From: a virus
Taxonomy: Duplodnaviria > Heunggongvirae > Uroviricota > Caudoviricetes
Reading direction: 5' to 3' (one strand)
IMG/VR virus record: IMGVR_UViG_3300011952_000007
Length of the DNA stretch: 11,564 nt
The notes beneath the pieces are model-generated. The model ran no database searches. It was not told the origin of the DNA and worked only from the letters and a program-made list of their open reading frames with translations. This document shows positions 1 to 10,962 of the stretch, one piece after another (positions within the stretch are counted from its first letter, which is position 1; each line of letters starts with the position of its first letter). A program made the position numbers and the translations under genes.

Positions 1-248
1 ACGATATGCGCCGTACAGCCAGTACATTGTTGCATGAGGCTGGTTATCCTTCAGACTGGATTGAAAAGGCTCTGGCACATGAGCAGAAAGGTGTGCGCGC
101 CGTATATAACAAAGCGGAATACGCCAGACAGCGCGCCTACATGTTGCAGCAGTGGGCCGATATGATTGATTCCTGGATTGACGGGGAGCATACGGATCTG
201 ATTCCGTTCTCCCCGTCGAAGTTTGAGAAGTGGATGGCGGGGGAATAA
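1..248 (+). CDS. int: Tyrosine integrase, P4 family, C-terminal part (5' end lies left of the window)
   Basis: ORF 6-248 is in frame with codon 3-5 (D), giving ...DMRRTASTLLHEAGYPSDWIEKALAHEQKGVRAVYNKAEY..., which matches the conserved HDxRRT...LxH...GV...Y catalytic C-terminus of P4-type integrases as I recall it. Stop at 246-248. Confidence 0.85.
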   Translation, partial: DMRRTASTLLHEAGYPSDWIEKALAHEQKGVRAVYNKAEYARQRAYMLQQWADMIDSWIDGEHTDLIPFSPSKFEKWMAGE

Positions 249-450
249 CGTTTAATTATTCTGCTGATTTTCTTCCATCTCGGCTTCTGCTGCCAGTGAT
301 TCAATTTTATCTGTGAANNNNNNNNNNTTGCTGACAGTGTTGCAAATTCAGCATCAGTGACAGCGGGAATTGGAACAAACCTGATCCCGCTGTGTGCAAG
401 CATGTTTGCAGTTTCAAGGCATTTCCTTAAATCTGCTGGTGATGCCCTGT

Positions 451-1098
451 TCATGCTGCACGCTCCCGCCCCTGGTTGTCTGTTGGTGACAGCGGAGCAT
501 TGCTGAATGCATTTGTTAATCCGGCAATATACAACGCGTATCCAGGGTGTAGTTGCACTGCTGGGTCTTCGCACTGATTACCCCAAACATCGAAGCCATG
601 AGACGTTTGGCGGGCGAACAGTTCAATGCGAGAAACATCGCCTAACAATTGCACAAGTTTTTCACGAACGACATCTGGTTTTCTTGAATGCTCAAGCCGC
701 GGTGCGGTAAATGACTGAACGATACCTGCATTAATGCGCGGAGGTAGTTTTCCCTTTACCGCAAACAGGCAATCTTCACTGTTGGCGCGAGTCATGTGTC
801 CCATCCCCATAACCAGTTTATCTGGTTGTCGACTACCACATTTTATCCACGTGAAGCCCTTCATGGTCATCAGACGAAATCCCCAGGCTTCAACAACTTT
901 TAGTGCTTCGAGTGGTTGTGTTGGCACCCACCACATGGCCAACAGACAGTTTTCATCGGCCAAATCCCACACAGGAAGGCGGCAGATATCCAGCACACTC
1001 ATAACCGGATATTTAAAACCGGCACCGCGATTACCATCTGCGGCTTTGTCCCGGTATACCCAGGGTGGATCTGCATAGATTAGCGTGTATTTTTTCAT
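451..1098 (-). CDS. MT-A70 family N6-adenine DNA methyltransferase
   Basis: The DPPW motif is visible in MKKYTLIYADPPWVY. Start ATG 1098-1096 is preceded by GGGAGCAG as a Shine-Dalgarno. The start overlaps the stop of the upstream DndB-like gene (ATGA, 1095-1098). The longer track ORF (to 1224) is an out-of-frame extension inside the upstream gene. Confidence 0.8.
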   Translation of the reverse strand: MKKYTLIYADPPWVYRDKAADGNRGAGFKYPVMSVLDICRLPVWDLADENCLLAMWWVPTQPLEALKVVEAWGFRLMTMKGFTWIKCGSRQPDKLVMGMGHMTRANSEDCLFAVKGKLPPRINAGIVQSFTAPRLEHSRKPDVVREKLVQLLGDVSRIELFARQTSHGFDVWGNQCEDPAVQLHPGYALYIAGLTNAFSNAPLSPTDNQGRERAA

Positions 1099-2169
1099 TG
1101 TTCTGCTCCCAGACTTCCTTTGGTAAAGGCTTGTATCAGCCTGTTTGCTGCCGCTTTCTGTGCTGCTACATTGGCAATAACTGATAGTTTTTCCTGGCTT
1201 GCTTTCGTGCAGATCCCAACCCAATTATCCATTAGGAAAAAATTCTCTCTTTCTGCGAAGTCAGTATTTGCACATAATGTTTCAATCATTGAAATTATTT
1301 CTTTTATTGAGTGATTAACCATCATTTGCTGAACAGCATAGCCAAAAGCGTTAATCATCACTGCATGAAACTGGATATATTCTCTTTTGTATTCTGATTG
1401 CTTTGTACCATGGCGAATTGCTTCTAGTTGTGTNNNNNNNNNNACATAACCATGATTCCCATACTGACTCGATGTTACCAATTTCTAGTTTTTTCCCATT
1501 ATGAATACAAAATTTTGATGTTGAATCACTTAATGCTTTGAAACTCACCCACATGTTTGACTTTGACGGAACAACGTTGTGCTCGAAGTCAGTGACTTCT
1601 GCAAAAGTGTCATGTTGCGACAGGAAAGACACCATTTCTTGGGCAACATCGTTTCGTCCGTCATACGCCATATTAATTGCTGCAGATGGTTTTGAAACAT
1701 TATTATTAATGTCAGAAAAGAACTGCTGACGCGCCTTCAAAGGAAGGTTATGCGTAAGCATAAGAGGAATCATAATTGTTTCGCCATAATTACGGCAGAA
1801 CTCAGCTAATCCTGCAGCACGATGCTGTCCATCAAATAATTTTATTTCTGCATCCATAGGAAATCTAGCTAAACCGACATTAGTATTTCCAATCTCATGG
1901 AACTCTATTTCTGAGTTACAATTTCCGACCAATGGTGGAACAATAAATGGTTCCTTTTTCTCGTAAGCGTTGACTAAATATTGATAAAACTTTTTTACCC
2001 TGGTTGGATTAATTTCACGTTGAGAACGTTCAAGGGTACTTCCCGTATTGTCGGTTGCCAATACTCTCGATAGTGCTCTTGCTGGTACTGTCATCATAAG
2101 TATTACAGTGCTTCCCTGCGTTCCTCGTGATGCGGGAAATTCAAAGAAATAATCGCCTACCTTGCTCAT
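1095..2169 (-). CDS. DndB-like DGQHR-domain protein (interrupted by N run 1434-1443)
   Basis: DGQHR motif in KLFDGQHRAAGLAEF; N-terminus FEFPASRGTQGSTVILMMTVPARAL resembles DndB/DpdB family proteins. Start chosen at ATG 2169-2167 (MSKVG...) because AAGGT sits 8 nt upstream; ATG 2205 is an alternative. The open frame resumes after the N run (TQLEAIRHGTKQ... to stop at 1095), so I treat 1095-1481 and 1351-2205 as one gene of about 357 aa. Confidence 0.7.
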
Positions 2170-2197
2170 GATATTACCTTTTACATTATTGTTTTGA

Positions 2198-2497
2198 TTA
2201 TTCATAAACCACCCCGCACCATCCTATGCCGCTATAGTCGCCACGGCGAAGGCCGTTACCTTTTGTGATACATTGGTCCCTGCGAACCGCGATCCTTGCA
2301 CGTTCAACATCACCAGAAGCAACATCCATACACTGAAGCCAAAGGTGAGCGGCAATGCGGAATTGCCCTTTTTTCTCTCTTTCAATCGCGCGTTTTTCGA
2401 TCTCTATCGCCGCAGGAGTAACGGCGACAATCTTTGACGGACTGCGCATTGAAACCTTATTCATGTGATATTTTTCAAGTCGGCTTAACTTTCTCAC
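2198..2497 (-). CDS. Hypothetical protein (99 aa), first gene of the accessory cassette
   Basis: Open frame with GTG start at 2497-2495 and GAGAGGG 5-6 nt upstream. Its stop (TAA 2200-2198) lies just inside the 5' end of the DndB-like ORF. No recognisable motif. Confidence 0.4.
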   Translation of the reverse strand: MRKLSRLEKYHMNKVSMRSPSKIVAVTPAAIEIEKRAIEREKKGQFRIAAHLWLQCMDVASGDVERARIAVRRDQCITKGNGLRRGDYSGIGWCGVVYE

Positions 2498-2606
2498 TTA
2501 ATCCAACCCTCTCTGAAAATTAATGCCAGCAGATAAAGCCATGCTGAAACAGAGGCCAGGAATAAGTACCATCCTGACCATTTGCTCCAGTGCCTTAGCA
2601 GCACAC

Positions 2607-2855
2607 TCATGCAGCGTTGCTCACAGGACGATATACACGTTGCTGAACAGGAGGCTTTTTACCCTGGAACTCTGCCGGGCTTGCTGCCTGACGTTCATCA
2701 AGCCAACGCTCAACTTCGTCACGGTTCCATGCGCAGCGTTTGTCAGTGATATACCAGCGTTTAGGAAATTCACCTGCGCGCTCCATACGGTCGATAGTGC
2801 TCCATGACAGTGGCACCACCGCCAGGAGTTCCTTCTTACCTAATGCACCTTTCAT
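2607..2855 (-). CDS. alpA: AlpA-family HTH regulator, putative excisionase or transcriptional activator
   Basis: MKGALGKKELLAVVPLSWSTIDRMERAGEFPKRWYITDKRCAWNRDEVERWLDER fits the Phage_AlpA pattern (HTH followed by conserved W...W). GAGAGG Shine-Dalgarno upstream of ATG 2855-2853. Confidence 0.8.
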   Translation of the reverse strand: MKGALGKKELLAVVPLSWSTIDRMERAGEFPKRWYITDKRCAWNRDEVERWLDERQAASPAEFQGKKPPVQQRVYRPVSNAA

Positions 2856-2877
2856 AAATACCTCTCTTGGTTGCAGT

Positions 2878-2896
2878 GCGGCGCGCGTGGCGCCGC
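2878..2896 (-). other. GC-rich hairpin in the recT-alpA intergenic region
   Basis: On the minus strand GCGGCGC-cacgc-GCGCCGC forms a perfect 7-bp GC stem with a 5-nt loop. No U tract follows. Confidence 0.4.
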
Positions 2897-2904
2897 GGTG
2901 GTGG

Positions 2905-3822
2905 TTACATAGATGTTTCGTTTAATTCTTCCCGACGAACGCTGTAAACGTCGGTGGCTTTTGCCAGCAGTTCGTCATCATCTGAAAGTTTTTGTGCAAT
3001 GTATTTGTAAGCCTTATCCAGTTCGGAGACAGTGCTGTAATTCATCGCTGCGCTGGTAAAGGCCATCAGCATTTCTTCTGGATCACGGCTATCCGCTTTA
3101 CGCGTTTGCTCATCAGGCTTTTTCACTGTTTTAGCGTTGATCAGACTGTTCATGCTGGATGCTGTGCCGTGCTTTGCCTGACTTCTTGGAGTTACGTCAC
3201 GTTCAATAATGTCAGGTGAGTCGATATATTTACCTTCCATTTCCTCAGCTGTGGCTTGTTGACCAATCTCCGGCCATGCTTTACGTAATGCCTGTGCCTC
3301 TGCGCATTTTGCCAACTGCGCATAAGGGCGCTTTTTCCACATGGCATTTGGTGCCGATGTGTCACGCCCCCCAGTTGCATAGTTCTCAATCCAGTATTCT
3401 TTGGCGCTAAACTCTACGATTTCCCCGCTTGCCATTCGCTTGCTGACGGTGTACTTACACCACTGAGGGAAGGTAACCTCCACGCCTGAAAGCGTTTGTG
3501 TTACATCTGGACCGAACTCAGGTTCATTAGCGCCTGCGTAATCGCCGGAACGGTAGGCCTGAATGCGATAAAGTCCAATGCCAGGCATGACCACGTCGCG
3601 CCATTCATTCTTTCCACTCTTCGAGTCTTTAACACTCATTGGTACCAGGTGTACCGGCTTAAGAAGAGGATCGAGTTGACGCGCCCGGCAGTAATCGACT
3701 GCCATCATTACCGATTCATCTTTTGCCCCAGGGTAAATACTGTTTTTCAGAGCGCTCCATGTAACTTCATCGATTCCCCGAATAGCCAACACATCATTGG
3801 TGATTGCAATTTCGTTGCTCAT
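2905..3822 (-). CDS. recT: RecT/Bet-family single-strand annealing protein
   Basis: The region MWKKRPYAQLAKCAEAQALRKAWPEIG aligns by eye to lambda Bet HPKRMLRHKAMIQCARLAFGFAG. Start ATG 3822-3820 has an AGGA Shine-Dalgarno and overlaps the recE stop (ATGA at 3819-3822). Confidence 0.85.
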   Translation of the reverse strand: MSNEIAITNDVLAIRGIDEVTWSALKNSIYPGAKDESVMMAVDYCRARQLDPLLKPVHLVPMSVKDSKSGKNEWRDVVMPGIGLYRIQAYRSGDYAGANEPEFGPDVTQTLSGVEVTFPQWCKYTVSKRMASGEIVEFSAKEYWIENYATGGRDTSAPNAMWKKRPYAQLAKCAEAQALRKAWPEIGQQATAEEMEGKYIDSPDIIERDVTPRSQAKHGTASSMNSLINAKTVKKPDEQTRKADSRDPEEMLMAFTSAAMNYSTVSELDKAYKYIAQKLSDDDELLAKATDVYSVRREELNETSM

Positions 3823-4640
3823 ACGTACATATCCTGTTTGCGTGCCCACTCAGGGCGTTTAATAATTTCCACGCCGCCCCATTCATCGCTGATGCGGCAT
3901 TCGTGATAGGTATTCAGATCCCGGCGGAACAGAGCGTGCCCGGCATCGACATCCGGCGCATCCAGCCCGAACACGCGTACCGGATACCGACCACAATCAA
4001 TGCTTTCGCTCACGGCAAGAAAGAAAAAACCATGCGGCTGACCAGTAATCCTCATTGCGCCTTCGCGGTACATTGCGTCCTGCACGTGGTAGCGGAATTC
4101 CTCGATGTGACGTGCAAAACGGTCCATATCTGCAACCTTTTTCACGTCGACGATCACGTTGTGCTCGTTCAGCCATTTGTCTGGACGAATTCGGCACAAC
4201 TCACCCGTCTCTTCATCGTTCCAGTACATTGATGCTTCGCAGTAACCAGGTGCTTCCAGCATCCAGCGTGCCGCCGGGTGAGCCATTGCGCTATCACGCA
4301 TCAGCTCCAGTTTCCGCCACTGCTCGGCATCAAGTACCGTAATCCCCATATCCGCTACATCACGAAGAAATGCTTCTTCGTCAGCTTTACCTTGTTTCGT
4401 CCGACGATCGAACTTCGGTGAAACAATGAAGCGTTTGTCGAATTCTCCAGGCTCCAGAAGCAGACAGTGCAATGCGGTTCCCATATCCAGTGCAGACTTT
4501 TTCTCTTCGTCTTCTGGTGCTGCCTGAACCCATTTAAGAAGCGCCGGATTCTTGGCAACCATGTCCAGTTGCGACTTACTCACGCCGTCACCGGCGTGGT
4601 AGTCTTCGTTGCTGATGTCGAAATAAATTCCCGGTTTCAT
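3819..4640 (-). CDS. recE: RecE-like PD-(D/E)XK exonuclease (exonuclease VIII C-terminal nuclease domain only)
   Basis: [23 protein letters not shown]...[12 protein letters not shown]...CRIRPDKW...IVDVKKV...RYHVQDAMY matches the RecE C-terminal domain as I recall it ([23 protein letters not shown]...RPDK...DVK...YHVQDAFY). GAGGGAAG Shine-Dalgarno before ATG 4640. Confidence 0.85.
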   Translation of the reverse strand: [273 protein letters not shown]

Positions 4641-5061
4641 GCCGCTTCCCTCTGCCCATCAAGCTGATCCGCCAGATCCCAGCGCGCTATAATTGCCATT
4701 GCCTCGCGCCGGTAGGAATACATCAGTTCTTCGCACTCAGGGCTNNNNNNNNNNNNNNNNNNNNNNNNNNNNNNNNNNNNNNNNNNNNNNNNNNNNNNNN
4801 NNNNNNNNNNNNNNNNNNNNNNNNNNNNNNNNNNNNGTAGGAATCCATCAGTTCTTCGAACTCAGGGCTGTCTTTAGCAGCCTCCAGCACTTCCTGACGA
4901 ACGCCTTTGCCTGTTACAACGTCGAAAGTTGAGGACAGTTGATGAAGTCGGATGCTCTCAATCAGTTCAACTTGTCGGTCATATAGCTGTTCTGACAGGC
5001 GGTAGTCCTTGTCGAATGCCAGCATGATTTTTTGAAGATTTTTCTGCTGATTAACGTTCAT
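4637..5061 (-). CDS. Hypothetical protein immediately upstream of recE (interrupted by 92-nt N run; may be one gene or two tandem paralogs)
   Basis: N-terminal part MNVNQQKNLQKIMLAFDKDYRLSEQ...SPEFEELMDSY starts at ATG 5061-5059 behind GGGAGGG. A separate frame after the gap reads ...SPECEELMYSYRREAMAIIARWDLADQLDGQREAA and ends with TGA 4639-4637 overlapping the recE ATG. The two visible parts are in different frames if the gap is literally 92 nt. Confidence 0.45.
4712..4869. repeat. 33-bp near-identical direct repeat flanking the N run (4712-4744 and 4837-4869)
   Basis: gtaggaatacatcagttcttcgcactcagggct versus gtaggaatccatcagttcttcgaactcagggct: 31/33 identical, offset 125 bp, both within coding sequence (SPECEELMYSY / SPEFEELMDSY). 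Confidence 0.8.
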
Positions 5062-5063
5062 TA

Positions 5064-5216
5064 TCAGCCCTCCCATATCTCGTTATCGTTGGCCACATCG
5101 CGAGCTTCTTTGCTGACGAAAGCCCACTTAATGCCTTCCTGTAAGGTGCGGAACTTCCAGCTCATGAATCCGCATGCAGTAACGCAGTACCAACCGTTGA
5201 TGATTTTCCACTGCAT
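5064..5216 (-). CDS. Small hypothetical protein (50 aa), first gene of the leftward operon
   Basis: ATG 5216-5214 is preceded by GAGGT 8 nt upstream. Translation MQWKIINGWYCVTACGFMSWKFRTLQEGIKWAFVSKEARDVANDNEIWEG. Its stop TGA (5066-5064) lies 2 nt before the next ATG. Below the 60-aa cutoff of the supplied track. Confidence 0.4.
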   Translation of the reverse strand: MQWKIINGWYCVTACGFMSWKFRTLQEGIKWAFVSKEARDVANDNEIWEG

Positions 5217-5235
5217 AACTTGTTACCTCGGTCTG

Positions 5236-5251
5236 TTACCGTTGAGGTAAT
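5236..5251. promoter_or_regulatory. Operator OL-1 (TTACC-gttga-GGTAAT)
   Basis: Inverted repeat overlapping the -10 and start region of the leftward promoter. Confidence 0.65.
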
Positions 5252-5278
5252 AATTATGCGTATTTGGTTTGATGTCAA
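5250..5278 (-). promoter_or_regulatory. Leftward early promoter (pL-like)
   Basis: Minus strand has a perfect -35 TTGACA (5278-5273), a 17-nt spacer and -10 AATTAT (5255-5250), directing transcription toward the 50-aa ORF, recE and recT. Confidence 0.6.
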
Positions 5279-5296
5279 TAGATATGAGTTAAAAAA

Positions 5297-5313
5297 ATTA
5301 CCCATAAGGTAAT
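5297..5313. promoter_or_regulatory. Operator OL-2 (ATTACC-cataa-GGTAAT)
   Basis: Perfect 6-bp arms, centred about 62 bp from OL-1 and about 19 bp upstream of the -35. Confidence 0.65.
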
Positions 5314-5325
5314 CTTGTTGGCAAT

Positions 5326-5349
5326 AAAAAAGCCGCCATGAGGCGGCTT
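5326..5349 (-). terminator. Intrinsic terminator after the repressor gene
   Basis: Minus strand AAGCCGCC-tcat-GGCGGCTT (8-bp stem) followed by TTTTTT (plus-strand A run 5326-5331); 20 nt downstream of the repressor stop. Confidence 0.65.
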
Positions 5350-5369
5350 ACTTACTGAAAACTATAGTT

Positions 5370-5954
5370 TTATTGTTTGCTTCTTTCGTTCTGGCTGATG
5401 ACAAATTCAATGTAACTTTCGATCTTTGCCTTCTCTGTTTCGGGTAACAATGCGTAGCGCGAGCGGTCATAGTTGATAGTCGCAGGGTCGTGCGGGTGAA
5501 TCAGTAATTCATAGCCGTGACGCCCGAATGCGGATGCAACATTCTCCAGGGTGGAAATGGAAACGCTGACTTCATTGTTTAACAGGCGGCTGATTGTCAC
5601 CTGGGCGACGCCGGATGCGCGGTGTAGTTTTCCCTGCGTTGAAAGGTCGCGGCTTTCGCTCATCCAGCGTTCCAGGTTGTGAGCCGCCAGCTGACCAATG
5701 TCGCTTGGGCCGACAGGCTGAAACCCCTCCTGAGAAAGCGAGCGATCGATATCAAGCCAGTTACGGGGTTTATTGGCGGCAGCTTCAATTTTTCGCGCAA
5801 CCTGGTCGCCGATAACCTTCTTGCCAAGAGCCCAGCGGTTTACCAGATTTGCCTGAGTTCCAAGTTTTTCTGCCATCCGCGTCTGAACACCATTGAATTC
5901 ACGGTCGATCAAGTCGTTGAGATTTTGCCTGCGGACGTCCTGGATACTTTTCAT
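5370..5954 (-). CDS. Prophage repressor with two HTH domains, CI-like in position but lacking an S24 peptidase domain
   Basis: Two XRE-type HTH-like segments (QTRMAEKLGTQANLVNRWALGKK and LHRASGVAQVTISRLLNNEVSVSISTLENVA). No S24 signature could be seen. Sits divergent from the Cro-like gene with operators between. Weak Shine-Dalgarno before the start. Confidence 0.7.
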   Translation of the reverse strand: MKSIQDVRRQNLNDLIDREFNGVQTRMAEKLGTQANLVNRWALGKKVIGDQVARKIEAAANKPRNWLDIDRSLSQEGFQPVGPSDIGQLAAHNLERWMSESRDLSTQGKLHRASGVAQVTISRLLNNEVSVSISTLENVASAFGRHGYELLIHPHDPATINYDRSRYALLPETEKAKIESYIEFVISQNERSKQ

Positions 5955-6008
5955 TTTCTGGAAAATCGCCTCATATATGAATCAGTAGATGATTCAATTT
6001 AAAGCAAT

Positions 6009-6025
6009 ATTACCCAACAGGTAAA
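6009..6025. promoter_or_regulatory. Operator OR-a (ATTACC-caaca-GGTAAa)
   Basis: Inverted repeat in the divergent control region. Confidence 0.6.
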
Positions 6026-6026
6026 T

Positions 6027-6042
6027 GCACCTCATAGGTAAC
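6027..6042. promoter_or_regulatory. Operator OR-b, degenerate (gcACC-tcata-GGTAAC)
   Basis: Right arm is consensus, left arm 3/5. Confidence 0.4.
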
Positions 6043-6047
6043 TATCC

Positions 6048-6076
6048 TTGATTTTTGTTACCTTATGGGTGAATAT
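6048..6076 (+). promoter_or_regulatory. Rightward early promoter (pR-like)
   Basis: -35 TTGATT (6048-6053), 17-nt spacer, -10 GAATAT (6071-6076), 33 nt upstream of the Cro-like ATG. Confidence 0.55.
6057..6072. promoter_or_regulatory. Operator OR-c (TTACC-ttatg-GGTga)
   Basis: Overlaps the spacer and -10 of the pR-like promoter. Confidence 0.5.
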
Positions 6077-6108
6077 TTATTATCTGAAATAAATATCAGG
6101 CAATAGCT

Positions 6109-6339
6109 ATGAGCGATAACGGACATTTCGATTTCAAAAAGCACTGGCTTGCACTTACTCCGGATGAGCGTGAAGCCTTCGCACAGGAAGCCGGAACGAC
6201 GAGTCACTATATCCAGACTCACTTAACAGGTAAGCGCAAAATGCCAGGTAAAGTATTGATGAATGGGCTTTTTAAAGCCTGCAAAACAAGACAATGGCTG
6301 CGCTCAAAAGCAGAACTGGCATACTTCTTCTACTCATGA
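6109..6339 (+). CDS. Cro-like HTH DNA-binding regulator (76 aa)
   Basis: Divergent from the repressor and first gene after the pR-like promoter. HTH-like segment EREAFAQEAGTTSHYIQTHLTGKRKMPGKVL. Family assignment is from position and motif only. Confidence 0.55.
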   Translation: MSDNGHFDFKKHWLALTPDEREAFAQEAGTTSHYIQTHLTGKRKMPGKVLMNGLFKACKTRQWLRSKAELAYFFYS

Positions 6340-6360
6340 TATCCAGCTACAACCCTCTGT

Positions 6361-6384
6361 AGACCGCCACCCGGCGGTCTTTTC
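6361..6384 (+). terminator. Intrinsic terminator after the Cro-like gene (tR1-like position)
   Basis: AGACCGCC-accc-GGCGGTCT perfect 8-bp stem followed by TTTT. Confidence 0.6.
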
Positions 6385-6394
6385 ATATCTATTC

Positions 6395-6410
6395 GTACCT
6401 CAAAGGTAAT
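6395..6410. promoter_or_regulatory. Operator-like site (gTACC-tcaaa-GGTAAT) just downstream of the terminator
   Basis: Same half-site and spacing as the other operators; 16 bp upstream of a candidate -35 TTGATC (6427-6432). Confidence 0.4.
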
Positions 6411-6487
6411 AAAAAACCAAATCTGGTTGATCAAATTTTCCAATTGTGCAAAATAGCCAATATCAATAACAAAAAGAGGCGGAAAAA

Positions 6488-6700
6488 TTGAAGATAGTAA
6501 CCAGAATGGAGGCCGCAAAAGCCGGGTTAAATCGCTATTTCACAGGAAAGCGGTGCCGTCACGGCCATCTCTCTGAAAGGTATGTTCTGAACGGAACATG
6601 TGTTGAATGTGCAATGAATAGCGCCAACCGCCATCGTAATGAATTTGCTTGTGCACTAAAGAGTGCAAGAGGGGAAACCTATGGCAAGCAGCTGGATTAA
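6488..6700 (+). CDS. Small zinc-finger-like protein (C-x-H-x-H ... C-x-x-C)
   Basis: KRCRHGHLSERYVLNGTCVECA contains Cys/His ligands. TTG start at 6488 has AAGAGG 8 nt upstream; ATG 6506 is an alternative. The 3' end overlaps the replication gene by 20 nt. Confidence 0.4.
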   Translation: MKIVTRMEAAKAGLNRYFTGKRCRHGHLSERYVLNGTCVECAMNSANRHRNEFACALKSARGETYGKQLD

Positions 6701-7511
6701 GGTTGAAGTTATCACTCCTGATAAACCTGAAATTTTTCAGATAGCAGAAATTCTGGGTATTGATCCAGATGCTGTTCTTGGAAAGCTGGTTCGTATATGG
6801 GCATGGGCTGACCAGCAAACAATAGACGGTAACGCTGGCAGCGTTACAAAAGGAGTACTTGATAGACTCGCTTTTATTACAGGATTTGCTGACGCCCTCA
6901 TTAGCGTCGGATGGCTTGCTTATCATGACGGCAAACTAATTCTTCCAAACTTTGAGCGACACAATGGAGAATCATCGAAAAAACGTGCACTTACGAATAG
7001 AAGAGTGGCAGAGCATCGAAAACGAGTAACGCAAAAAGTAACGCCAACAGCGTTACAAAAGGAGTTACCAGAGGAAGAGGAAGAGGAAGATATATATAAA
7101 ACCCCACACATAGCGCACGTGCGCGAGGGTGCTCCGACCAGTGAAGCGAACGGTATGCCGTTGCAGGTGGCTGAACCTGAATTTCTGGATGGCCTGAGTG
7201 AACCCATCGGGAAATTTCCGATGACCGATGGCTGGCATCCGTCGCCGGATTTTCGACGGCGTGCTGCGCTGTGGGGAACGGCCCTGCCGGAACCGGAATT
7301 TACACCTGCTGAACTTGCTGCATTCCGGGATTACTGGATGGCTGAGGGCAAAGTGTTCACGCAGGTTCAGTGGGAACAAAAATTCGCCAGGCACGTAAAT
7401 CATATCAGGGGAAAATCAAAAAACGCCGGGAAAAGCGATGAGCTTGACTGGAATAACACTGACTGGATAGAAGGGGTGTGGGATGAAATCAACTCCAGAA
7501 CTTCTCAATGA
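6681..7511 (+). CDS. Replication initiator (O-like position) with DnaT-like C-terminal domain
   Basis: C-terminal GKFPMTDGWHPSPDFRRRAALWGTALPEPEFTPAELAAFRDYWMAEGKVFTQVQWEQKFARHV matches E. coli DnaT as recalled ([29 protein letters not shown]...[20 protein letters not shown]). GAGGGG Shine-Dalgarno before ATG 6681. A Glu-rich linker (EEEEEED) separates the two halves. Confidence 0.8.
   Translation: MASSWIKVEVITPDKPEIFQIAEILGIDPDAVLGKLVRIWAWADQQTIDGNAGSVTKGVLDRLAFITGFADALISVGWLAYHDGKLILPNFERHNGESSKKRALTNRRVAEHRKRVTQKVTPTALQKELPEEEEEEDIYKTPHIAHVREGAPTSEANGMPLQVAEPEFLDGLSEPIGKFPMTDGWHPSPDFRRRAALWGTALPEPEFTPAELAAFRDYWMAEGKVFTQVQWEQKFARHVNHIRGKSKNAGKSDELDWNNTDWIEGVWDEINSRTSQ
6829..7065. repeat. 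Two copies of palindrome GTAACGC-N5-GCGTTAC followed by AAAAGGAGT (6829-6856 and 7038-7065), plus an extra AGTAACGC (7025-7032)
   Basis: An exact 18-bp direct repeat cagcgttacaaaaggagt at 6839-6856 and 7048-7065, read in different frames in the two copies. Followed by (GAGGAA)x3 and atatatataaaa (7071-7100). Confidence 0.55.
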
Positions 7512-8321
7512 GTACGATCGCTTACGTGAGCATGGTGTTGCTGTGCATGAAGAGCGGCGTGACAGCAATGGCAAAAAGGAGCAGGTCGCTAGAATTTTCA
7601 ATGAACTATTTGTCCAGTTACAGGCTGCATTTCCCGCAAGCGTTTCGACCATAAGGGAGCAGAACAAACTTAATGAATTCCGTAAGCAATGGATGCTTGC
7701 GTTTCTGGAGAATGGGATCACTACAATGGAACAGGTTAACGCTGGTATGCGCCACGCCCGCGCCAGTGAGTCTCCGTTCTGGCCGTCGCCAGGGCAATTC
7801 ATCAAGTGGTGTAAAGACAGCAAGATGGTTCTTGGCGTCACCATTGACGATGTGATGGCAGAGTTTCACCGGTACAGCAAGGAAAAAAGTTTATATCCTG
7901 GTGGTCCCGAANNNNNNNNNNCGTTTCTGGCCGCCTGCGCCAGCTGCGCGTCGGTGACCTGATCGGCGTAGCTGCCAAACGCCCCTACCGCGTTGCTGTA
8001 GTTAAGCGCCAGCTTAGCGAGATTGAGGTTGAGAAACACGCGCGCAGGCTGCTCGATGATTGGGCGAAAAAGGTGGCTTCCGGACAGCAGATACCCGATC
8101 CGGTGATCAGCATACAGGCAAAGCCAGAACCCATGAGTACGCCTCCGGACACAGGGAGAGACGTTTACCATCCACCAGGGCGAAGTTTCGGGTGCATGCC
8201 TAACGCCGCCACCCTTGGGGGAATAACACCGGCGCAGTGGCTGATGGAGGAATACAGGCGGGGGAAGGCCGGAGGAGTTATTAAGAAAGGCAGGTTTTAT
8301 CAAGTAATACCAGCGCGATAG
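7483..8321 (+). CDS. Lambda P-like replication protein, helicase loader (interrupted by N run 7912-7921)
   Basis: KEQVARIFNELFVQLQAAFPASVSTIREQNKLNEFRKQWMLAFLENGITTMEQVNAGMRHARASESPFWPSPGQFIKWC matches lambda P as recalled (QVAQIINGVFSQLLATFPASLANRDQNEVNEIRRQWVLAFRENGITTMEQVNAGMRVARRQNRPFLPSPGQFVAWC). After the gap an open frame continues to TAG 8319-8321 and contains GQQIPDPV (lambda P GEAIPEPV). Confidence 0.75.
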
Positions 8322-8333
8322 CGCATTTTTTTA
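8313..8333 (+). terminator. Weak terminator-like element after the P-like gene
   Basis: GCGC-gata-GCGC 4-bp stem followed by ATTTTTTT. The stem is short. Confidence 0.3.
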
Positions 8334-8343
8334 CGTCTCGATA

Positions 8344-8360
8344 ATTACCTGTGAGGTAAT
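8344..8360. promoter_or_regulatory. Operator O3-2 (ATTACC-tgtga-GGTAAT)
   Basis: Perfect 6-bp arms, 18 bp upstream of -35 TTGATT. Confidence 0.6.
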
Positions 8361-8378
8361 AAAATATTCTAAACTCTA

Positions 8379-8407
8379 TTGATTTCGTGTCTTATGTGGT
8401 TTTTAAT
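8379..8407 (+). promoter_or_regulatory. Repressor-controlled internal promoter upstream of the ead/nin-like block
   Basis: -35 TTGATT (8379-8384), 17-nt spacer, -10 TTTAAT (8402-8407), flanked by operators O3-2 and O3-1. Confidence 0.5.
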
Positions 8408-8422
8408 TACCTCAGGGGTAAA
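8406..8422. promoter_or_regulatory. Operator O3-1 (ATTACC-tcagg-GGTAAa)
   Basis: Overlaps the -10 and the Shine-Dalgarno of the gene at 8425; centred 62 bp from O3-2, the same spacing as OL-1/OL-2. Confidence 0.6.
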
Positions 8423-8424
8423 TT

Positions 8425-8769
8425 ATGAGAAAACAGATACAGGCTCTTGGTCGACTCAAAACAGGCCAGATGAACAAAACAGAATCTGCGTATTGCCAGC
8501 ACCTTGAGCTGCGTAAACGTGCAGGGGAAATCGCCTGGTATCGATTTGAGGGTATCAAGCTGCGATTAGCTGACAACACGTTCTATACGCCCGATTTTGC
8601 TGTGATGCTCGCCACCGGCGAGATGGAACTGCACGAAGTGAAAGGTTTCTGGACCGACGACGCCAGGGTGAAAACCAAAGTCGCCGCAGATCAGTATCCG
8701 TTCCGAATCATCGGGGTAACGGTTAAACCAAAGAAAGCAGGTGGTGGCTGGAACATCGAAGAGTTCTGA
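8425..8769 (+). CDS. Small phage protein with a PD-(D/E)XK-like motif, putative nuclease fold
   Basis: TPDFAVMLATGEMELHEVKG carries PD ... E-x-K spacing. AGGGG Shine-Dalgarno before the ATG. Family name not assigned with certainty. Confidence 0.55.
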   Translation: MRKQIQALGRLKTGQMNKTESAYCQHLELRKRAGEIAWYRFEGIKLRLADNTFYTPDFAVMLATGEMELHEVKGFWTDDARVKTKVAADQYPFRIIGVTVKPKKAGGGWNIEEF

Positions 8770-8830
8770 ATCGACGATCTTTTTAGTTATCAATGTAATC
8801 AATAAGTTATGTGGATAAGCGAGGGTAAAG

Positions 8831-9379
8831 ATGGAAAGTAATATCAAAGGGTTAGTTGCCGCCGGGCATGAGATGGCTTCGGAACTGAAAGCAGAATGTG
8901 GTGCCGTTGATATGCGTAGTGTGGCAAAACTGATCAGCGATTTGGCAACGCAACTGGAAGTGCAACTGGTGCGTGCTAATGCGCTGGCAGCGGAGAATGC
9001 GGGGCTGAAACACGCAATGGCTGTAACTCTTGATCATGTGTCGGTCACGGATGCAGGGCAGGCTGGTGTTGCTGCAATGATTATCAACGATGCCCTACAC
9101 CACAGCGAAACTCCAGCTACCGATGCTTTTCTGGCTGAAATTCGTGCGGAAGCACGCAACGAGGGGATTAACTATACCGCCAGCCGTCTTGCTGCTGCGT
9201 TCAATCACGGATTTATCAATAAGTCTTTGCGTGAAGTTTTCGACGTTACACGCATGATTTTGTCAGCGAAAGAAGAGTTGGCTAATGAACCGCATCCGAT
9301 TGATGGCCTGTCTGGTGAATATGCGGAGAAATCCCTGGAAGAATGGGCGGAACAGATTCGCAAAGGAGTTCAGTCATGA
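8831..9379 (+). CDS. Hypothetical phage protein with predicted coiled-coil N-terminus (182 aa)
   Basis: GAGGGTAAAG precedes the ATG. The stop overlaps the next start (ATGA, 9376-9379). Confidence 0.55.
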   Translation: MESNIKGLVAAGHEMASELKAECGAVDMRSVAKLISDLATQLEVQLVRANALAAENAGLKHAMAVTLDHVSVTDAGQAGVAAMIINDALHHSETPATDAFLAEIRAEARNEGINYTASRLAAAFNHGFINKSLREVFDVTRMILSAKEELANEPHPIDGLSGEYAEKSLEEWAEQIRKGVQS

Positions 9380-9615
9380 GCATCCGAACTGAACATGGAT
9401 TTGGTCCGTCAACGGTCGAAGTCGAATGGCTTGATGATTGCCCTAAGTGCCAGCACGGCAAAGCCAAGGTAACAGGATGGTCGGTAACCAAAGATTCTTT
9501 GAGGGCGGGTGATGAGGCCGTCTGTTCCAAATGCGGTCACANNNNNNNNNNCGAAATCGATGCTGATGGAGAGAATGCCTGGGTGGAATGGGACGAAATC
9601 GAGGAGGCACAATGA
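9376..9615 (+). CDS. Zinc-ribbon protein (CPKC ... CSKC), interrupted by N run 9542-9551
   Basis: Two CxxC pairs (DCPKCQHG and VCSKCGH). AAGGAG Shine-Dalgarno 7 nt before ATG 9376. ATGA overlap with the next gene at 9612-9615. Confidence 0.55.
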   Translation: MSIRTEHGFGPSTVEVEWLDDCPKCQHGKAKVTGWSVTKDSLRAGDEAVCSKCGHXXXXEIDADGENAWVEWDEIEEAQ

Positions 9616-10409
9616 GCAATATCGACACACTGGCGCTGCGTGAGGCGGCAGAACGTGCAACTCCAGCAATGGAACGCCTGTTAATGTTGCCAGCTGATGA
9701 TGATTTGTTAAGTGAACAGGAACTTAAAGATTACGGTGTGGATATTGATGCGCTCAACGCCTTCAAATTTCTGACCGGACCAGAAACCGTGCTGGCACTA
9801 CTGGATGAACGGGAAAGAAACCAGCAATACATCAAACGCCGCGACCAGGAGAACGAGGATATTGCGCTAACGGTAGGGAAGCTGTTAATCGAAAACGGTC
9901 AGCTTGTTGCCGATACGCTACGCCACTTAGCTGATAACGAAATCGACTCTGATTATTTTGCTATCACCTCAACGAATGAGAACGGTACTGAAATTGATCA
10001 TGAGATGGCTATTACCGATTACGCACTGCAAGCTGCCGGAACTGTAGACGAGTTGATAGCAGCGCTGGAAGCCGCAGAGAAGCGCAACGCAAAATTACAA
10101 AGCGAGAATGCATACATCCGCAACAGGTACAAAGAACTGGACCTATTAATCGGGAAAAACATTCTGGTCATGCAGGCTGCGATTATCGAATGGCAGGCAA
10201 CTGGCGACGCTAAGAGCGGACTGGCATGGATTTATAACACACTGTTTGGCCCTGGCGAATTGCCGGACGAATCTGAGAAAGATGCTCAGGCCTACTTTAA
10301 TCGCAAATATGCACCGATTGACGAAAAGCTCATGGAGCTTCACAAGTGGTTTTGGGAACAAAGTGAAGCCGAGCGCGCCGCTGGTATTCACATAAAAGGA
10401 GGTGAGTAG
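9612..10409 (+). CDS. Ea22-like (ead region) protein
   Basis: N-terminus MSNIDTLALREAAERATP... and PETVLALLDERE resemble ead/Ea22-like prophage proteins as I recall them. GAGGAGG Shine-Dalgarno. Confidence 0.6.
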   Translation: MSNIDTLALREAAERATPAMERLLMLPADDDLLSEQELKDYGVDIDALNAFKFLTGPETVLALLDERERNQQYIKRRDQENEDIALTVGKLLIENGQLVADTLRHLADNEIDSDYFAITSTNENGTEIDHEMAITDYALQAAGTVDELIAALEAAEKRNAKLQSENAYIRNRYKELDLLIGKNILVMQAAIIEWQATGDAKSGLAWIYNTLFGPGELPDESEKDAQAYFNRKYAPIDEKLMELHKWFWEQSEAERAAGIHIKGGE

Positions 10410-10582
10410 TGCGTGTGGCATGTATCGGCTTGTTACCGGACCCGACTCGTTTTTGGGCTTCTGCGCTAATTGCAAAGCCGCATGTCCTGATGGCTGACAT
10501 GATCATTCCGGCACCGAAACGCCGTACAGGCGTTGCAGCGGCGAAACGAGCAGCAAAGAAACGCAGGAGAGCAAAACGATGA
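10409..10582 (+). CDS. Possible small basic protein (57 aa, GTG start)
   Basis: AGGAGG sits 6 nt before GTG 10409. C-terminus KRRTGVAAAKRAAKKRRRAKR. The stop overlaps the next ATG (ATGA). No homology recognised; may be non-coding. Confidence 0.25.
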   Translation: MRVACIGLLPDPTRFWASALIAKPHVLMADMIIPAPKRRTGVAAAKRAAKKRRRAKR

Positions 10583-10767
10583 AAAACCGTAAAGCAAAAA
10601 TCCTATTAGCTCGCAGAAACGGTGTTGGGGTCTGGCGATGGGTGAGGATTAGTAACAGACGGTTGAGGCTTACGGGGTTTTTAGGGGTGATGGGGCACAG
10701 CTGTTGCAAAAAGCCCAGCGCGGCGCAAAACCGATGGAAAAACCACTTGCGCACTAAAGGAGAGTGA
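10579..10767 (+). CDS. Possible small Arg-rich protein (62 aa)
   Basis: ORF in the track; no clear Shine-Dalgarno; composition is basic and Trp-rich. Confidence 0.3.
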   Translation: MKNRKAKILLARRNGVGVWRWVRISNRRLRLTGFLGVMGHSCCKKPSAAQNRWKNHLRTKGE

Positions 10768-10768
10768 G

Positions 10769-10960
10769 ATGAACGGACAAATATCAATTGTTCGACCGGG
10801 AGCATGTGACGATCGCGAGATACGAATGATTATTCGTCTGGCAATGGGGAAAACAATAACTGCTCTCATTACTCCTGAAAATCTCGCATTAGCATTAACA
10901 GGAAAGTCAGACCTGCCAGTAGAGCTAAAGCTGCGAAACGTTGAGATTAAAGTGAAATAG
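10769..10960 (+). CDS. Hypothetical protein (63 aa)
   Basis: AAGGAG Shine-Dalgarno 6 nt before the ATG; compact spacing to neighbours. Confidence 0.5.
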   Translation: MNGQISIVRPGACDDREIRMIIRLAMGKTITALITPENLALALTGKSDLPVELKLRNVEIKVK

Positions 10961-10962
10961 TT

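What the first reader, a model, noticed from the sequence alone, without database searches (positions are those of the whole stretch)
451..2497. Coupled DndB-like (DGQHR) protein and MT-A70 adenine methyltransferase: candidate two-component DNA-modification cassette
Seen in sequence: a DGQHR-motif protein (KLFDGQHRAAGLAEF) is followed by an MT-A70-type methyltransferase (YADPPW), with stop and start overlapping as ATGA (1095-1098). A 99-aa ORF lies upstream and a further ATGA-coupled small ORF downstream. No dndACDE, dpdA, restriction endonuclease or ATPase gene is present anywhere in the window. Established knowledge: DndB-family proteins are DNA-binding partners of DNA-modifying machineries (Dnd phosphorothioation, Dpd 7-deazaguanine), and MT-A70/DPPW enzymes are N6-adenine methyltransferases. 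The slot downstream of recT holds restriction-alleviation genes in lambda (ral) and Rac (lar/ralR). Inference: a DndB-like protein partnered with a methyltransferase rather than sulfur or deazaguanine enzymes may be a phage module for self-protective or targeted adenine methylation (anti-restriction or epigenetic exclusion). I am not aware of this pairing being characterised.
Basis: partly seen in the sequence, partly recalled or inferred. Interest (0 to 1): 0.8.

Follow-up and report, generated by a model that had tools for sequence, protein, structure and literature searches.

The report
Phage methylase beside inserted DndB-like gene
A prophage adenine methyltransferase gene really does sit directly after a DndB-like (DGQHR) gene, but comparison with hundreds of related phages shows the DndB-like gene is a separately inserted single-gene cassette, not an obligate partner of the methyltransferase.

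Summary
On the minus strand an intact 355-aa DGQHR/DndB-family gene (window 1095-2169) overlaps by ATGA a 215-aa MT-A70 (DPPW) methyltransferase gene (451-1098). The frame break at 1434-1443 is an artefact: 10 N stand for 3 bases. The "two-component cassette" reading is not supported. Near-identical prophages and phage vB_EcoP_ZX5 carry the same methyltransferase (98.6% identity) fused directly to the upstream PerC-like gene. The DGQHR gene is a precise, AT-rich, one-ORF indel at that junction, and the same indel separates Salmonella phages epsilon15 and SPN1S. Of 106 DGQHR loci, 56 have no recognised methyltransferase nearby. Among relatives sharing this RecT, 60 of 65 loci without DGQHR still carry a methyltransferase. 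Methyltransferases with and without the neighbour show no fixed residue difference, and no DGQHR-methyltransferase fusion was found. The methyltransferase is an ortholog of the Stx-phage enzyme M.EcoPA8orf6770P/M.EcoGV, which is already studied with a different partner, PNB-2, absent here. The DGQHR protein has a ParB/sulfiredoxin-fold N-domain. Its relatives lie in early-entry regions of mobile elements: phage early-left operons and conjugative-plasmid blocks with ArdA, Antirestrict, PsiA and SSB. Its function is unknown; I infer an early DNA-binding establishment or counter-defence role. Interest is moderate to low.

The parts
451..1098 (-). Orphan MT-A70 family (beta-class, DPPW) adenine methyltransferase, 215 aa. 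Its stop overlaps the DUF1382 start, and its ATG overlaps the DGQHR stop (ATGA at 1095-1098).
   Evidence: Pfam MT-A70 5.7e-22. PADLOC MTase_II 2e-76. phrog_359. 100% identical to WP_023145212.1. About 81% identical to Stx-phage copies and 98.6% to phage ZX5. The best solved relatives are the MT-A70 family protein chains 7f4r/7f4l and METTL3.
1095..2169 (-). DGQHR-domain (DndB-family) protein, 355 aa in the unmasked sequence. The N-terminal domain has a ParB/sulfiredoxin fold with the DGQHR motif at residues 113-117; the C-terminal half is helical. The N run at 1434-1443 inflates its length by 7 nt.
1095..2202 (-). Extent of the single-gene insertion relative to DGQHR-less relatives, within about 5 nt at each end. 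Both junctions fall at ATGA start/stop overlaps. The ATG at 2203-2205 is the former methyltransferase start codon.
   Evidence: Pairwise alignment of L190 (no DGQHR) with L193 (with DGQHR), flanks near-identical. GC is 33-42% inside against 47-53% in the flanks. The same precise indel separates epsilon15 and SPN1S.
1434..1443 (.). Run of 10 N that replaces 3 nt (AAG) and creates an artificial frame shift inside the DGQHR gene.
   Evidence: Alignment to NZ_CP126926.1.
2198..2497 (-). PerC/ANR-like small regulator (83 aa in RefSeq, 99 aa from the GTG start). In relatives without DGQHR its stop overlaps the methyltransferase start.
   Evidence: Pfam PerC 4.4e-07. NF033650 ANR 2.2e-05, below its cut-off. 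phrog_868 transcriptional activator. ZX5 gene order.
252..454 (-). DUF1382 small protein (64 aa), 4-nt overlap with the methyltransferase stop. Contains the N run at 318-327, which stands for 2 nt.
   Evidence: Pfam DUF1382 1.4e-30. RefSeq WP_001077944.1. Alignment.
6..248 (+). 3' end of the prophage tyrosine integrase gene, convergent with the early-left operon. It marks the prophage end next to guaA.
   Evidence: RefSeq annotation of the matching E. coli locus.
2607..4640 (-). Upstream genes of the same leftward operon: AlpA/Xis-like (2607-2855), RecT/Bet (2905-3849) and a PD-(D/E)XK exonuclease (3819-4640).
   Evidence: Pfam Phage_AlpA, RecT and DUF3799. RefSeq annotation.

Best explanation
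The window holds two independent accessory genes of the early-left operon of an epsilon15/ZX5-like (Uetakevirus-type) E. coli prophage. It is not a two-protein enzyme.

(1) The methyltransferase is the resident gene of a conserved "methyltransferase slot" between the recombination genes and int. It is an orphan MT-A70 N6-adenine methyltransferase, orthologous to the Stx-phage enzyme M.EcoPA8orf6770P/M.EcoGV. I infer that it is made early after induction or infection. It most likely methylates adenine in DNA in a Dam-like (GATC) manner (inferred, about 50%). The alternative is that it needs a nucleic-acid-binding partner, as its Stx-phage ortholog does.

(2) The DGQHR gene is a horizontally acquired, AT-rich, one-ORF cassette. 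It was inserted exactly at the PerC/methyltransferase start-stop junction, so it inherited translational coupling on both sides. Its product is a DndB-family protein with a ParB/sulfiredoxin-fold N-domain, predicted to bind NTP through the DGQHR arginine, plus a helical and possibly HTH-containing C-terminal half. I infer that it acts on its own as an NTP-gated DNA-binding protein during the first minutes after the element's DNA becomes active. Its role would be establishment or counter-defence, in the way leading-region ParB-like proteins act for plasmids.

Shown: gene structure, family membership, fold, the indel, and the separability of the two genes. Inferred: substrate of the methyltransferase, NTP and DNA binding, and the biological role of the DGQHR protein.
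For: Indel and composition:
- The DGQHR-less relative L190 reads ...GGTGGTTTATGACT|AAGAAATAC. The window type has about 1.1 kb inserted there, with near-identical flanks.
- The same one-ORF indel separates epsilon15 and SPN1S.
- The cassette is 33-42% GC against 47-53% in its flanks.

The methyltransferase occurs without DGQHR:
- ZX5 copy, 98.6% identical including the C-terminal tail.
- epsilon15.
- 516 phage records hold a methyltransferase homolog, against 44 with a DGQHR homolog.
- At most 21 of 539 E. coli genomes matching the region cover 80% or more of it.
- No fixed residue difference between 9 methyltransferases with and 13 without the neighbour.

DGQHR occurs without a methyltransferase:
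- 56 of 106 loci, with downstream neighbours such as TraR-like Zn-finger, HNH, DUF550 or integrase genes.

Backbone-matched controls:
- RecT-anchored loci: 60 of 65 without DGQHR have a methyltransferase; 3 of 3 with DGQHR do.
- Lambda-exo-anchored loci: 2 of 62 without DGQHR have one; 0 of 4 with DGQHR do.

Other points:
- No methyltransferase fusion in the long DGQHR proteins tested; only one PAPS-reductase fusion. All 120 listed close homologs carry only the PF14072 domain.
- 4-nt overlaps are general in this operon.
- Fold.
- Context of more distant DGQHR relatives: ArdA, Antirestrict, HHA, PsiA, SSB-like, RadC, ParA/KorB. 1063 plasmid records hold a homolog, 882 of them conjugative.
- Precedents in the literature: a DndB-like protein binds ATP/GTP (PMC12704722); leading regions concentrate anti-defence genes and orphan methyltransferases (PMC11541004); the ParB-like protein HerB acts alone early after plasmid entry (PMC13370423).
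Against: - Wherever a DGQHR locus does have a methyltransferase (50 loci, six methyltransferase families or subfamilies), that gene is always on the same strand, immediately downstream or one HTH gene away. This is more regular than random placement would give.
- The loci are phylogenetically non-independent, and my controls cover only two backbones.
- MT-A70 enzymes commonly need partners. The Stx-phage ortholog needs the product of its immediately upstream gene (PMC10810198), and DpdB, a DndB relative, is required by DpdA (PMC10164549). A facultative stimulatory role is therefore not excluded.
- My methyltransferase seeds could miss other methyltransferase families in the 56 "empty" loci.
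- The proposed role of the DGQHR protein rests on fold and neighbourhood only.
Confidence: 0.6

Rival explanations
1. Facultative partner. The DGQHR protein is an accessory loader, activator or targeting subunit for whichever methyltransferase lies downstream. It would work as an NTP-driven DNA clamp that concentrates methylation on the element's own DNA, much as DpdB enables DpdA or PNB-2 redirects the Stx-phage ortholog.
For: - In all 50 loci with both genes, DGQHR is directly 5' of the methyltransferase or one HTH gene away, on the same strand, with six methyltransferase types: MT-A70 a and b, PF05869 Dam, PF01555, PF02086 and C5.
- L097 differs from the TraR-type loci by a methyltransferase sitting exactly between DGQHR and TraR.
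- Vibrio phage Va_PF430-3_p42 pairs a 33%-identical DGQHR protein with a C5 methyltransferase next to int.
- Precedents: PMC10810198, PMC10164549; ParB-methyltransferase fusions are enriched in prophages (PMC12704722).
Against: - Both genes are common alone.
- Backbone-matched controls show no enrichment.
- There is no co-adaptation in methyltransferase sequence and no fusion.
- A specific protein-protein contact with six unrelated methyltransferase folds is unlikely.
- The closest 50%-identity clusters sit beside ArdA, DnaJ or PAPS-reductase genes, not methyltransferases.
Confidence: 0.2
2. Operon regulator. Like DndB, which represses the dnd operon, the DGQHR protein is a sequence-specific transcriptional regulator. 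It would tune the distal early-left genes (methyltransferase, DUF1382, int) or host genes.
For: - DndB is a promoter-binding repressor (PMC4507180).
- In one lineage the gene travels with an HTH gene (cl11/cl48) found only with DGQHR.
Against: - No sigma-70-like promoter is detected on the minus strand inside 1-5000 for it to act on.
- The downstream gene varies widely between loci.
- No operator-like repeat was looked for or found.
- TIGR03233 DndB equivalog score is far below its cut-off.
Confidence: 0.12
3. Minimal restriction-modification-like or toxin-antidote pair. The ParB/DGQHR protein is a nuclease, or an Abi-type effector with a HEPN-like C-terminus, and its damage is prevented by methylation from the adjacent enzyme.
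For: - DGQHR/DUF262 domains occur in GmrSD, BrxU and SspE type restriction proteins (PMC4619093).
- Makarova et al. describe DndB as ParB-like plus HEPN (PMC3632139).
- An R-x5-H string (R260...H266) lies in a conserved helix.
Against: - The DGQHR gene is stably carried without any methyltransferase in 56 of 106 loci and in hundreds of plasmids.
- No second nuclease domain is present.
- The gene sits in a repressed early operon rather than being expressed in the lysogen (inferred from position; no own promoter).
Confidence: 0.04

Closest known systems
M.EcoPA8orf6770P-PNB-2 holoenzyme of Stx phage phiPA8, and M.EcoGV of E. coli O104:H4 (PMC10810198)
   Same: The window's methyltransferase is about 81% identical over residues 2-191 to the Stx-phage copies (TL-2011c, PA28, phiON-2011). 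It has the same DPPW motif and the same position near int, in front of a DUF1382 gene. In both cases the upstream gene overlaps the methyltransferase start.
   Different: The upstream gene here is a 355-aa DGQHR protein with no similarity to PNB-2. No PNB-2 homolog exists in the window. The methyltransferase C-terminal tail, proposed there to be important for PNB-2 binding, is unrelated. In the closest relatives the upstream gene is PerC-like.
DndB of the Dnd phosphorothioation system (TIGR03233; PMC4507180)
   Same: Pfam DndB domain over residues 11-316, an invariant DGQHR motif, and a ParB/sulfiredoxin-fold N-domain.
   Different: It scores 110 bits against the equivalog cut-off of 328. No dndA/C/D/E or dndFGH genes are nearby. 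It is encoded by a phage early operon.
DpdB of the Dpd 7-deazaguanine system (PMC10164549)
   Same: It is a DndB/ParB-like protein encoded beside a DNA-modifying enzyme. DpdB's ATPase activity is needed for DpdA to modify DNA, which is the precedent for a helper role.
   Different: No dpdA (TGT-like) or other dpd gene is present. Here the neighbouring enzyme also exists and spreads without the DGQHR gene.
GATC-specific MT-A70 methyltransferase of Serratia phage BZS1 / coliphage HK639 (PMC7556043)
   Same: Same family, same genome position near int, and an orphan enzyme. The HK639 enzyme is 45% identical to the window's. The HK639-type enzyme (my MTA70b) also occurs downstream of DGQHR genes in other prophages.
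   Different: It belongs to a different subfamily, and specificity has been tested only for BZS1 p32. In HK639 the gene is preceded by a PNB-2-like gene plus a small ORF.
Leading-region ParB-like proteins of conjugative plasmids (HerB/YfjB, PMC13370423) and leading-region anti-defence islands (PMC11541004)
   Same: These are ParB-fold, NTP-binding proteins encoded among ssb, psiA, ardA, antirestriction and orphan methyltransferase genes and expressed first on entry. DGQHR homologs at 35-43% identity lie in exactly such blocks.
   Different: HerB is a canonical ParB_N/HTH CTP-binding protein, not a DGQHR/DndB-family member. No sequence comparison with HerB was made here. The role of the DGQHR proteins is untested.

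Membership tests
MT-A70 methyltransferase family (PF05063) | Profile match above the curated cut-off | tested here: met
   78.9 bits against a cut-off of 23.9, covering profile positions 1-172 of 172. PDB sequence matches to MT-A70 family protein chains 7f4r/7f4l and to METTL3.
MT-A70 methyltransferase family (PF05063) | Catalytic DPPW motif (motif IV) near the N-terminus, as in beta-class enzymes | tested here: met
   YADPPW at residues 8-13, conserved in all six aligned relatives.
MT-A70 methyltransferase family (PF05063) | SAM-dependent N6-adenine methylation, and the target (GATC DNA versus rRNA) | not testable with these tools
   Literature on homologs only: GATC for BZS1 p32 (PMC7556043) and for M.EcoGV in vivo; 16S rRNA for the phiPA8 enzyme with PNB-2 (PMC10810198).
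M.EcoPA8orf6770P-PNB-2 type holoenzyme | PNB-2 homolog encoded immediately upstream of the methyltransferase | tested here: not met
   tblastn with PNB-2 and with its 53%-identical homolog cl14 finds nothing in the window. The upstream gene is DGQHR, which has no similarity to PNB-2.
M.EcoPA8orf6770P-PNB-2 type holoenzyme | Stx-type C-terminal tail of the methyltransferase, proposed to be important for holoenzyme formation | tested here: not met
   The alignment diverges completely after about residue 191.
DGQHR domain superfamily (TIGR03187 / Pfam DndB PF14072) | Profile match above the cut-off and the DGQHR motif | tested here: met
   TIGR03187 192.6 bits against 58.85. PF14072 158.4 bits against 29.1. 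D113, G114, Q115 and R117 are invariant and H116 is at least 90% conserved in 49 homologs.
DGQHR domain superfamily (TIGR03187 / Pfam DndB PF14072) | ParB/sulfiredoxin fold of the N-terminal domain | tested here: met
DndB proper (TIGR03233 equivalog, Dnd phosphorothioation) | Score above the equivalog cut-off | tested here: not met
   110.1 bits against a cut-off of 328.
DndB proper (TIGR03233 equivalog, Dnd phosphorothioation) | Linkage to dndCDE (and dndA/iscS) | tested here: not met
   None in the window or in 26 kb of the matching chromosome. None in the 106 related loci by neighbour clustering.
DpdB (Dpd 7-deazaguanine system) | Linkage to dpdA (TGT-like) and dpdC | tested here: not met
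   No such gene is annotated in the locus.
ParB-type NTP-binding switch | NTP binding through the box II / P-motif arginine (here R117), and DNA binding | not testable with these tools
   Inferred only, from the fold and from ATP/GTP binding by a bacterial DndB-like protein (PMC12704722).
   Only 50 of 106 DGQHR loci have a methyltransferase. In backbone-matched sets, 60 of 65 and 2 of 62 loci without DGQHR have one, against 3 of 3 and 0 of 4 with it. Precise one-ORF indels.

The most novel reading that the evidence does not exclude
Orphan DGQHR/DndB-family proteins of phages and conjugative plasmids are a so far uncharacterised class of early-entry factors. They would be NTP-gated ParB-fold DNA clamps that protect or mark the incoming element's DNA. 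This could work by countering modification-based defences or by boosting whichever orphan methyltransferase is encoded next to them. In that case the window's DGQHR-MT-A70 junction would be one working example of a modular "loader + any methyltransferase" arrangement.
Probability: 0.2. Interest if true: 0.7.

Novelty: new member of a known kind. Interest (0 to 1): 0.35.

Why it matters
As it stands, the locus is an ordinary piece of lambdoid mosaicism: a known type of orphan phage methyltransferase with a moron-like DndB-family gene inserted in front of it.

Two things give it some value. First, it offers natural isogenic pairs: prophages with and without the DGQHR gene in E. coli, and SPN1S versus epsilon15 or ZX5 among cultured phages. 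These pairs make the function of orphan DndB-like proteins directly testable. Second, the same family is carried by more than a thousand sequenced plasmids, including plasmids typed IncL/M, inside blocks of anti-restriction genes. A role in establishment or counter-defence would therefore bear on plasmid and phage spread.

The locus is also a caution for the Stx-phage model. PNB-2-like genes precede methyltransferases of three unrelated families, and the upstream "partner" position is evolutionarily fluid.

Tried and rejected
- The afdb50 library was not available.
- The ATGA overlap as evidence of coupling was rejected, because 4-nt overlaps are the norm in this operon and the insertion simply reused them.
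- An MT-A70-only neighbour count understated the methyltransferases. I re-ran it with seeds for six methyltransferase types.
- A raw 47% methyltransferase adjacency, compared with 3% in the lambda-exo control, first looked like enrichment. The RecT-anchored control (92% without DGQHR) showed it tracks the backbone.
- Promoter and terminator scan: nothing on the minus strand inside 1-5000, so there is no evidence for an autonomous moron transcription unit.
- GATC count in the window (32 observed, 44.5 expected) is uninformative.
- Context look-ups for the nearest 50%-identity clusters mostly hit short contigs.
- A co-fold of the two proteins could not be run with the single-chain predictor.
Full report

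Yes. All genes in window 250-4640 lie on the minus strand.

The methyltransferase ORF ends at 451 and starts at the ATG at 1096-1098. It is 215 aa, with YADPPW at residues 8-13.

The DGQHR ORF appears as two pieces in different frames (1351-2205 and 1095-1481) on either side of the N run at 1434-1443. A megablast search found the region at 99.1% identity in complete E. coli chromosomes, where RefSeq annotates, in order: integrase, DUF1382, MT-A70 family methyltransferase, DGQHR domain-containing protein (355 aa), PerC family regulator, AlpA-like, Bet/RecT and a PD-(D/E)XK nuclease. This is a prophage next to guaA. The pairwise alignment shows that the ten N at 1434-1443 stand for 3 nt (AAG), and those at 318-327 for 2 nt. 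The frame break is therefore an artefact. On both sides of the N run the window encodes residues 1-242 and 244-355 of the RefSeq protein without a single change.

The real start is the ATG at 2169. The N-terminus MSKxGDYFF is conserved in 49 homologs.

The TGA/ATG overlap at 1095-1098 is real, and so is the 4-nt overlap of the methyltransferase stop with the DUF1382 start.

**2. Family assignments**

- The methyltransferase matches Pfam MT-A70 (78.9 bits, cut-off 23.9), a PADLOC type II methyltransferase model (2e-76) and phrog_359.
- The second protein matches Pfam DndB (158 bits), TIGR03187 "DGQHR domain" (192.6 bits, cut-off 58.85) and phrog_7901 ("unknown function").
- It reaches only 110 bits on the DndB equivalog model TIGR03233, whose cut-off is 328.
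- No dnd or dpd gene and no restriction endonuclease is annotated within 26 kb.

It is therefore a DGQHR-superfamily protein, but not DndB or DpdB in the strict sense.

An AlphaFold model built from 49 homologs is confident (pLDDT 86.6).
- Viral structure matches are DndB-like, GmrSD-N and AIPR proteins.
- The C-terminal half is helical, with only weak winged-helix-like matches.

**3. Are the two genes a unit?**

There are five lines of evidence.

*(a) Precise indels.* Viral contigs whose RecT is 99-100% identical to the window's mostly lack the DGQHR gene. In those, the PerC stop overlaps the methyltransferase start (...GGTGGTTTATGACTAAGAAATAC...). In the window type, about 1.1 kb holding exactly the DGQHR ORF is inserted at that point, with near-identical flanks. 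The former methyltransferase ATG survives at 2203-2205. The cassette is 33-42% GC in a 47-53% GC background. The same one-ORF difference separates Salmonella phage epsilon15 (no DGQHR) from SPN1S (with DGQHR), with the right-hand junction again at the methyltransferase ATG.

*(b) The methyltransferase is common without DGQHR.*
- Phage vB_EcoP_ZX5 has a 98.6%-identical enzyme, including the C-terminal tail, directly after PerC.
- 516 phage records hold a homolog of the methyltransferase, but only 44 hold a DGQHR homolog.
- Of 539 E. coli genomes matching the region, at most 21 cover enough of it to include the DGQHR gene.
- Nine methyltransferases with the neighbour and thirteen without share all polymorphisms and show no fixed difference.

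*(c) DGQHR is common without a methyltransferase.* Of 106 loci fetched with a DGQHR profile from genomes, viral contigs and phage records, 50 have a methyltransferase within 1.5 kb downstream and 56 have none of the six seeded types. Their downstream genes include a TraR-like Zn-finger protein (25 loci), an HNH gene, a DUF550 gene and an integrase.

*(d) Backbone-matched controls.*

| Anchor used to fetch loci | Without DGQHR: loci with a methyltransferase | With DGQHR: loci with a methyltransferase |
|---|---|---|
| RecT of the window | 60 of 65 | 3 of 3 |
| Lambda-type exo | 2 of 62 | 0 of 4 |

Methyltransferase presence therefore follows the phage backbone, not the DGQHR gene.

*(e) No fusions.* None of the ten long DGQHR proteins tested from a search of 1.84 billion representatives carries a methyltransferase domain; one is fused to a PAPS-reductase (DndC-like) domain. 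All 120 listed close homologs carry only PF14072.

The ATGA coupling is not special either. Four gene junctions in this operon overlap by 4 nt, and the cassette simply reused them.

**4. What keeps the partner idea alive?**

- Where both genes occur, the DGQHR gene is always directly 5' of the methyltransferase, or separated from it by one HTH gene. The methyltransferases belong to six types: two MT-A70 subfamilies, PF05869 Dam, PF01555 N6_N4, PF02086 Dam and C5.
- One locus (L097) differs from the TraR-type loci by a methyltransferase placed exactly between DGQHR and TraR.
- A 33%-identical DGQHR protein of a Vibrio phage sits in front of a C5 methyltransferase next to int.
- MT-A70 enzymes typically work with partners, and DpdB, a DndB relative, is needed by DpdA (PMC10164549).

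Much of this regularity can be explained by a few insertion events followed by swapping within the methyltransferase slot, which the control loci show is frequent. I cannot exclude a facultative stimulatory role, and I give it about 0.2.

**5. What the methyltransferase probably does**

Its closest studied relatives are the Stx-phage enzymes, about 81% identical over residues 2-191. According to Gong, Chakraborty and Koudelka (PMC10810198):
- M.EcoPA8orf6770P alone has weak, unspecific activity.
- It forms a 1:1 complex with PNB-2, the product of the gene immediately upstream, and then prefers 16S rRNA in 30S subunits.
- The similar M.EcoGV methylates GATC in vivo when over-produced.
- The enzyme's C-terminal tail is proposed to matter for PNB-2 binding.

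Here the tail is unrelated and no PNB-2 homolog is present. In the nearest relatives the upstream gene is PerC-like.

The more distant HK639/BZS1 subfamily is 45% identical to the window's enzyme and 94% identical to my "MTA70b". It includes an enzyme shown to be GATC-specific (PMC7556043).

I therefore infer an orphan Dam-like DNA adenine methyltransferase. The substrate remains open.

**6. What the DGQHR protein probably does**

By fold and motif it should bind a nucleotide through the DGQHR arginine. A bacterial DndB-like protein binds ATP and GTP (PMC12704722), and DndB itself binds promoter DNA (PMC4507180).

Its relatives point to a setting rather than a partner.
- Homologs at 35-43% identity occur in 1063 plasmid records, 882 of them conjugative. 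These include IncL/M plasmids, where the gene lies among RadC/JAB, HTH, DUF4942, Hha, antirestriction and ssb genes.
- In other contigs the neighbours are PsiA, Antirestrict (PF03230), DUF1281, an SSB-like protein and ParA/KorB.
- The nearest 50%-identity cluster is flanked by DnaJ on one side and by ArdA, HHA and Antirestrict on the other.

Leading regions of plasmids are known to concentrate anti-defence genes and orphan methyltransferases (PMC11541004). A leading-region ParB-like protein, HerB, acts alone on the host chromosome right after entry (PMC13370423). Phage early-left operons are the functional counterpart of these regions.

My best inference, at roughly 0.6 for independence of the two genes and much lower for the specific role, is an NTP-gated DNA-binding establishment or counter-defence factor that happens to have been inserted in front of the methyltransferase.

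**7. Novelty and verdict**

I found no paper describing a DGQHR-MT-A70 pair. However, the pair is annotated in RefSeq and is present in cultured phages (SPN1S, SPN9TCW, SPC32H/N). The methyltransferase lineage is already studied, and the evidence here argues that the pairing is mosaic adjacency.

Each gene is a new member of a known family. The orphan DGQHR clade of mobile elements is uncharacterised and worth a targeted experiment, because natural with/without pairs exist. Interest: 0.35.

Noticed in passing
window 318-327, 1434-1443, 4745-4836, 7912-7921, 9542-9551: Runs of N do not preserve length. The first two (10 N each) replace 2 and 3 nt of the near-identical E. coli record, so they create false frame shifts in the DUF1382 and DGQHR genes. 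The other three probably do the same to the ORFs they interrupt.
   Followed up: partly
L211-L269 (RecT-anchored viral contigs); L272:2903-3331 (HK639 gp37); L109:3567-3998 (TL-2011c gp12 = PNB-2): A PNB-2-like gene (53% identical to the Stx-phage PNB-2) lies directly upstream of methyltransferases of three unrelated families: MT-A70, PF05869 Dam and PF01555 N6_N4. PNB-2-like proteins are therefore not specific partners of the MT-A70 enzyme, which bears on the published holoenzyme model.
   Followed up: partly
e.g. L247:8526-8987, L255, L059:6065-6529 (cl11); L049:6046-6585 (cl48): Two related HTH genes (154 aa with no Pfam hit; 179 aa with Sigma70_r4_2 and a weak GcrA match) occur only together with the DGQHR gene, between it and the methyltransferase. 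They are absent from 65 DGQHR-less control loci. This looks like a two-gene DGQHR + HTH cassette in that lineage.
   Followed up: partly
L270 (NZ_CP126060.1, IncL/M plasmid) 6989-8272; plasmid hits H123-H135: A 427-aa DGQHR homolog is a standard gene of IncL/M plasmids. In the roughly 63.6-kb plasmids (pOXA-48 size) it is usually split by an IS1 element. It sits among RadC/JAB, HTH, DUF4942, Hha, antirestriction and ssb genes.
   Followed up: partly
L271 (NZ_CP149824.1) 5959-11332; L278; L005 (Pseudoalteromonas phage KB12-38) 935-5553; protein P0263: DndB-like genes are linked to a large PAPS-reductase-family (DndC-like) protein, without dndD/E, on a MOBF plasmid, on a genome contig (L278) and on a marine phage; on the plasmid and the phage an N6 or C5 methyltransferase is also nearby. 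One 697-aa protein fuses PAPS_reduct to DndB. This may be a reduced or different DNA-modification module.
   Followed up: no
L020-L024 (Buttiauxella, Dryocola, Pseudescherichia contigs), DGQHR at about 5000-6300: A 438-460-aa DGQHR homolog lies directly upstream of psiA, with Antirestrict (PF03230) and DUF1281 genes nearby. From memory, this is the position occupied by the ParB-like yfjB/herB gene in F-like leading regions. That positional equivalence was not checked.
   Followed up: no
L003 (Klebsiella phage ST101-KPC2phi6.3) 3088-5077; L065, L068, L069, L011: In several prophages a canonical ParB-like protein (HTH_ParB hit) is encoded just upstream of the DGQHR gene, so two different ParB-fold proteins lie side by side.
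   Followed up: no
window 2203-2205: The ATG that serves as the methyltransferase start in DGQHR-less relatives is retained in frame 12 codons upstream of the conserved DGQHR start. Translation could begin there and add MNNQNNNVKGNI to the protein.
   Followed up: no
window 2905-3849 versus L207-L269: The RecT/Bet gene is itself mosaic. Many relatives match residues 1-214 at 85-87% identity and then diverge completely in the C-terminal third.
   Followed up: no
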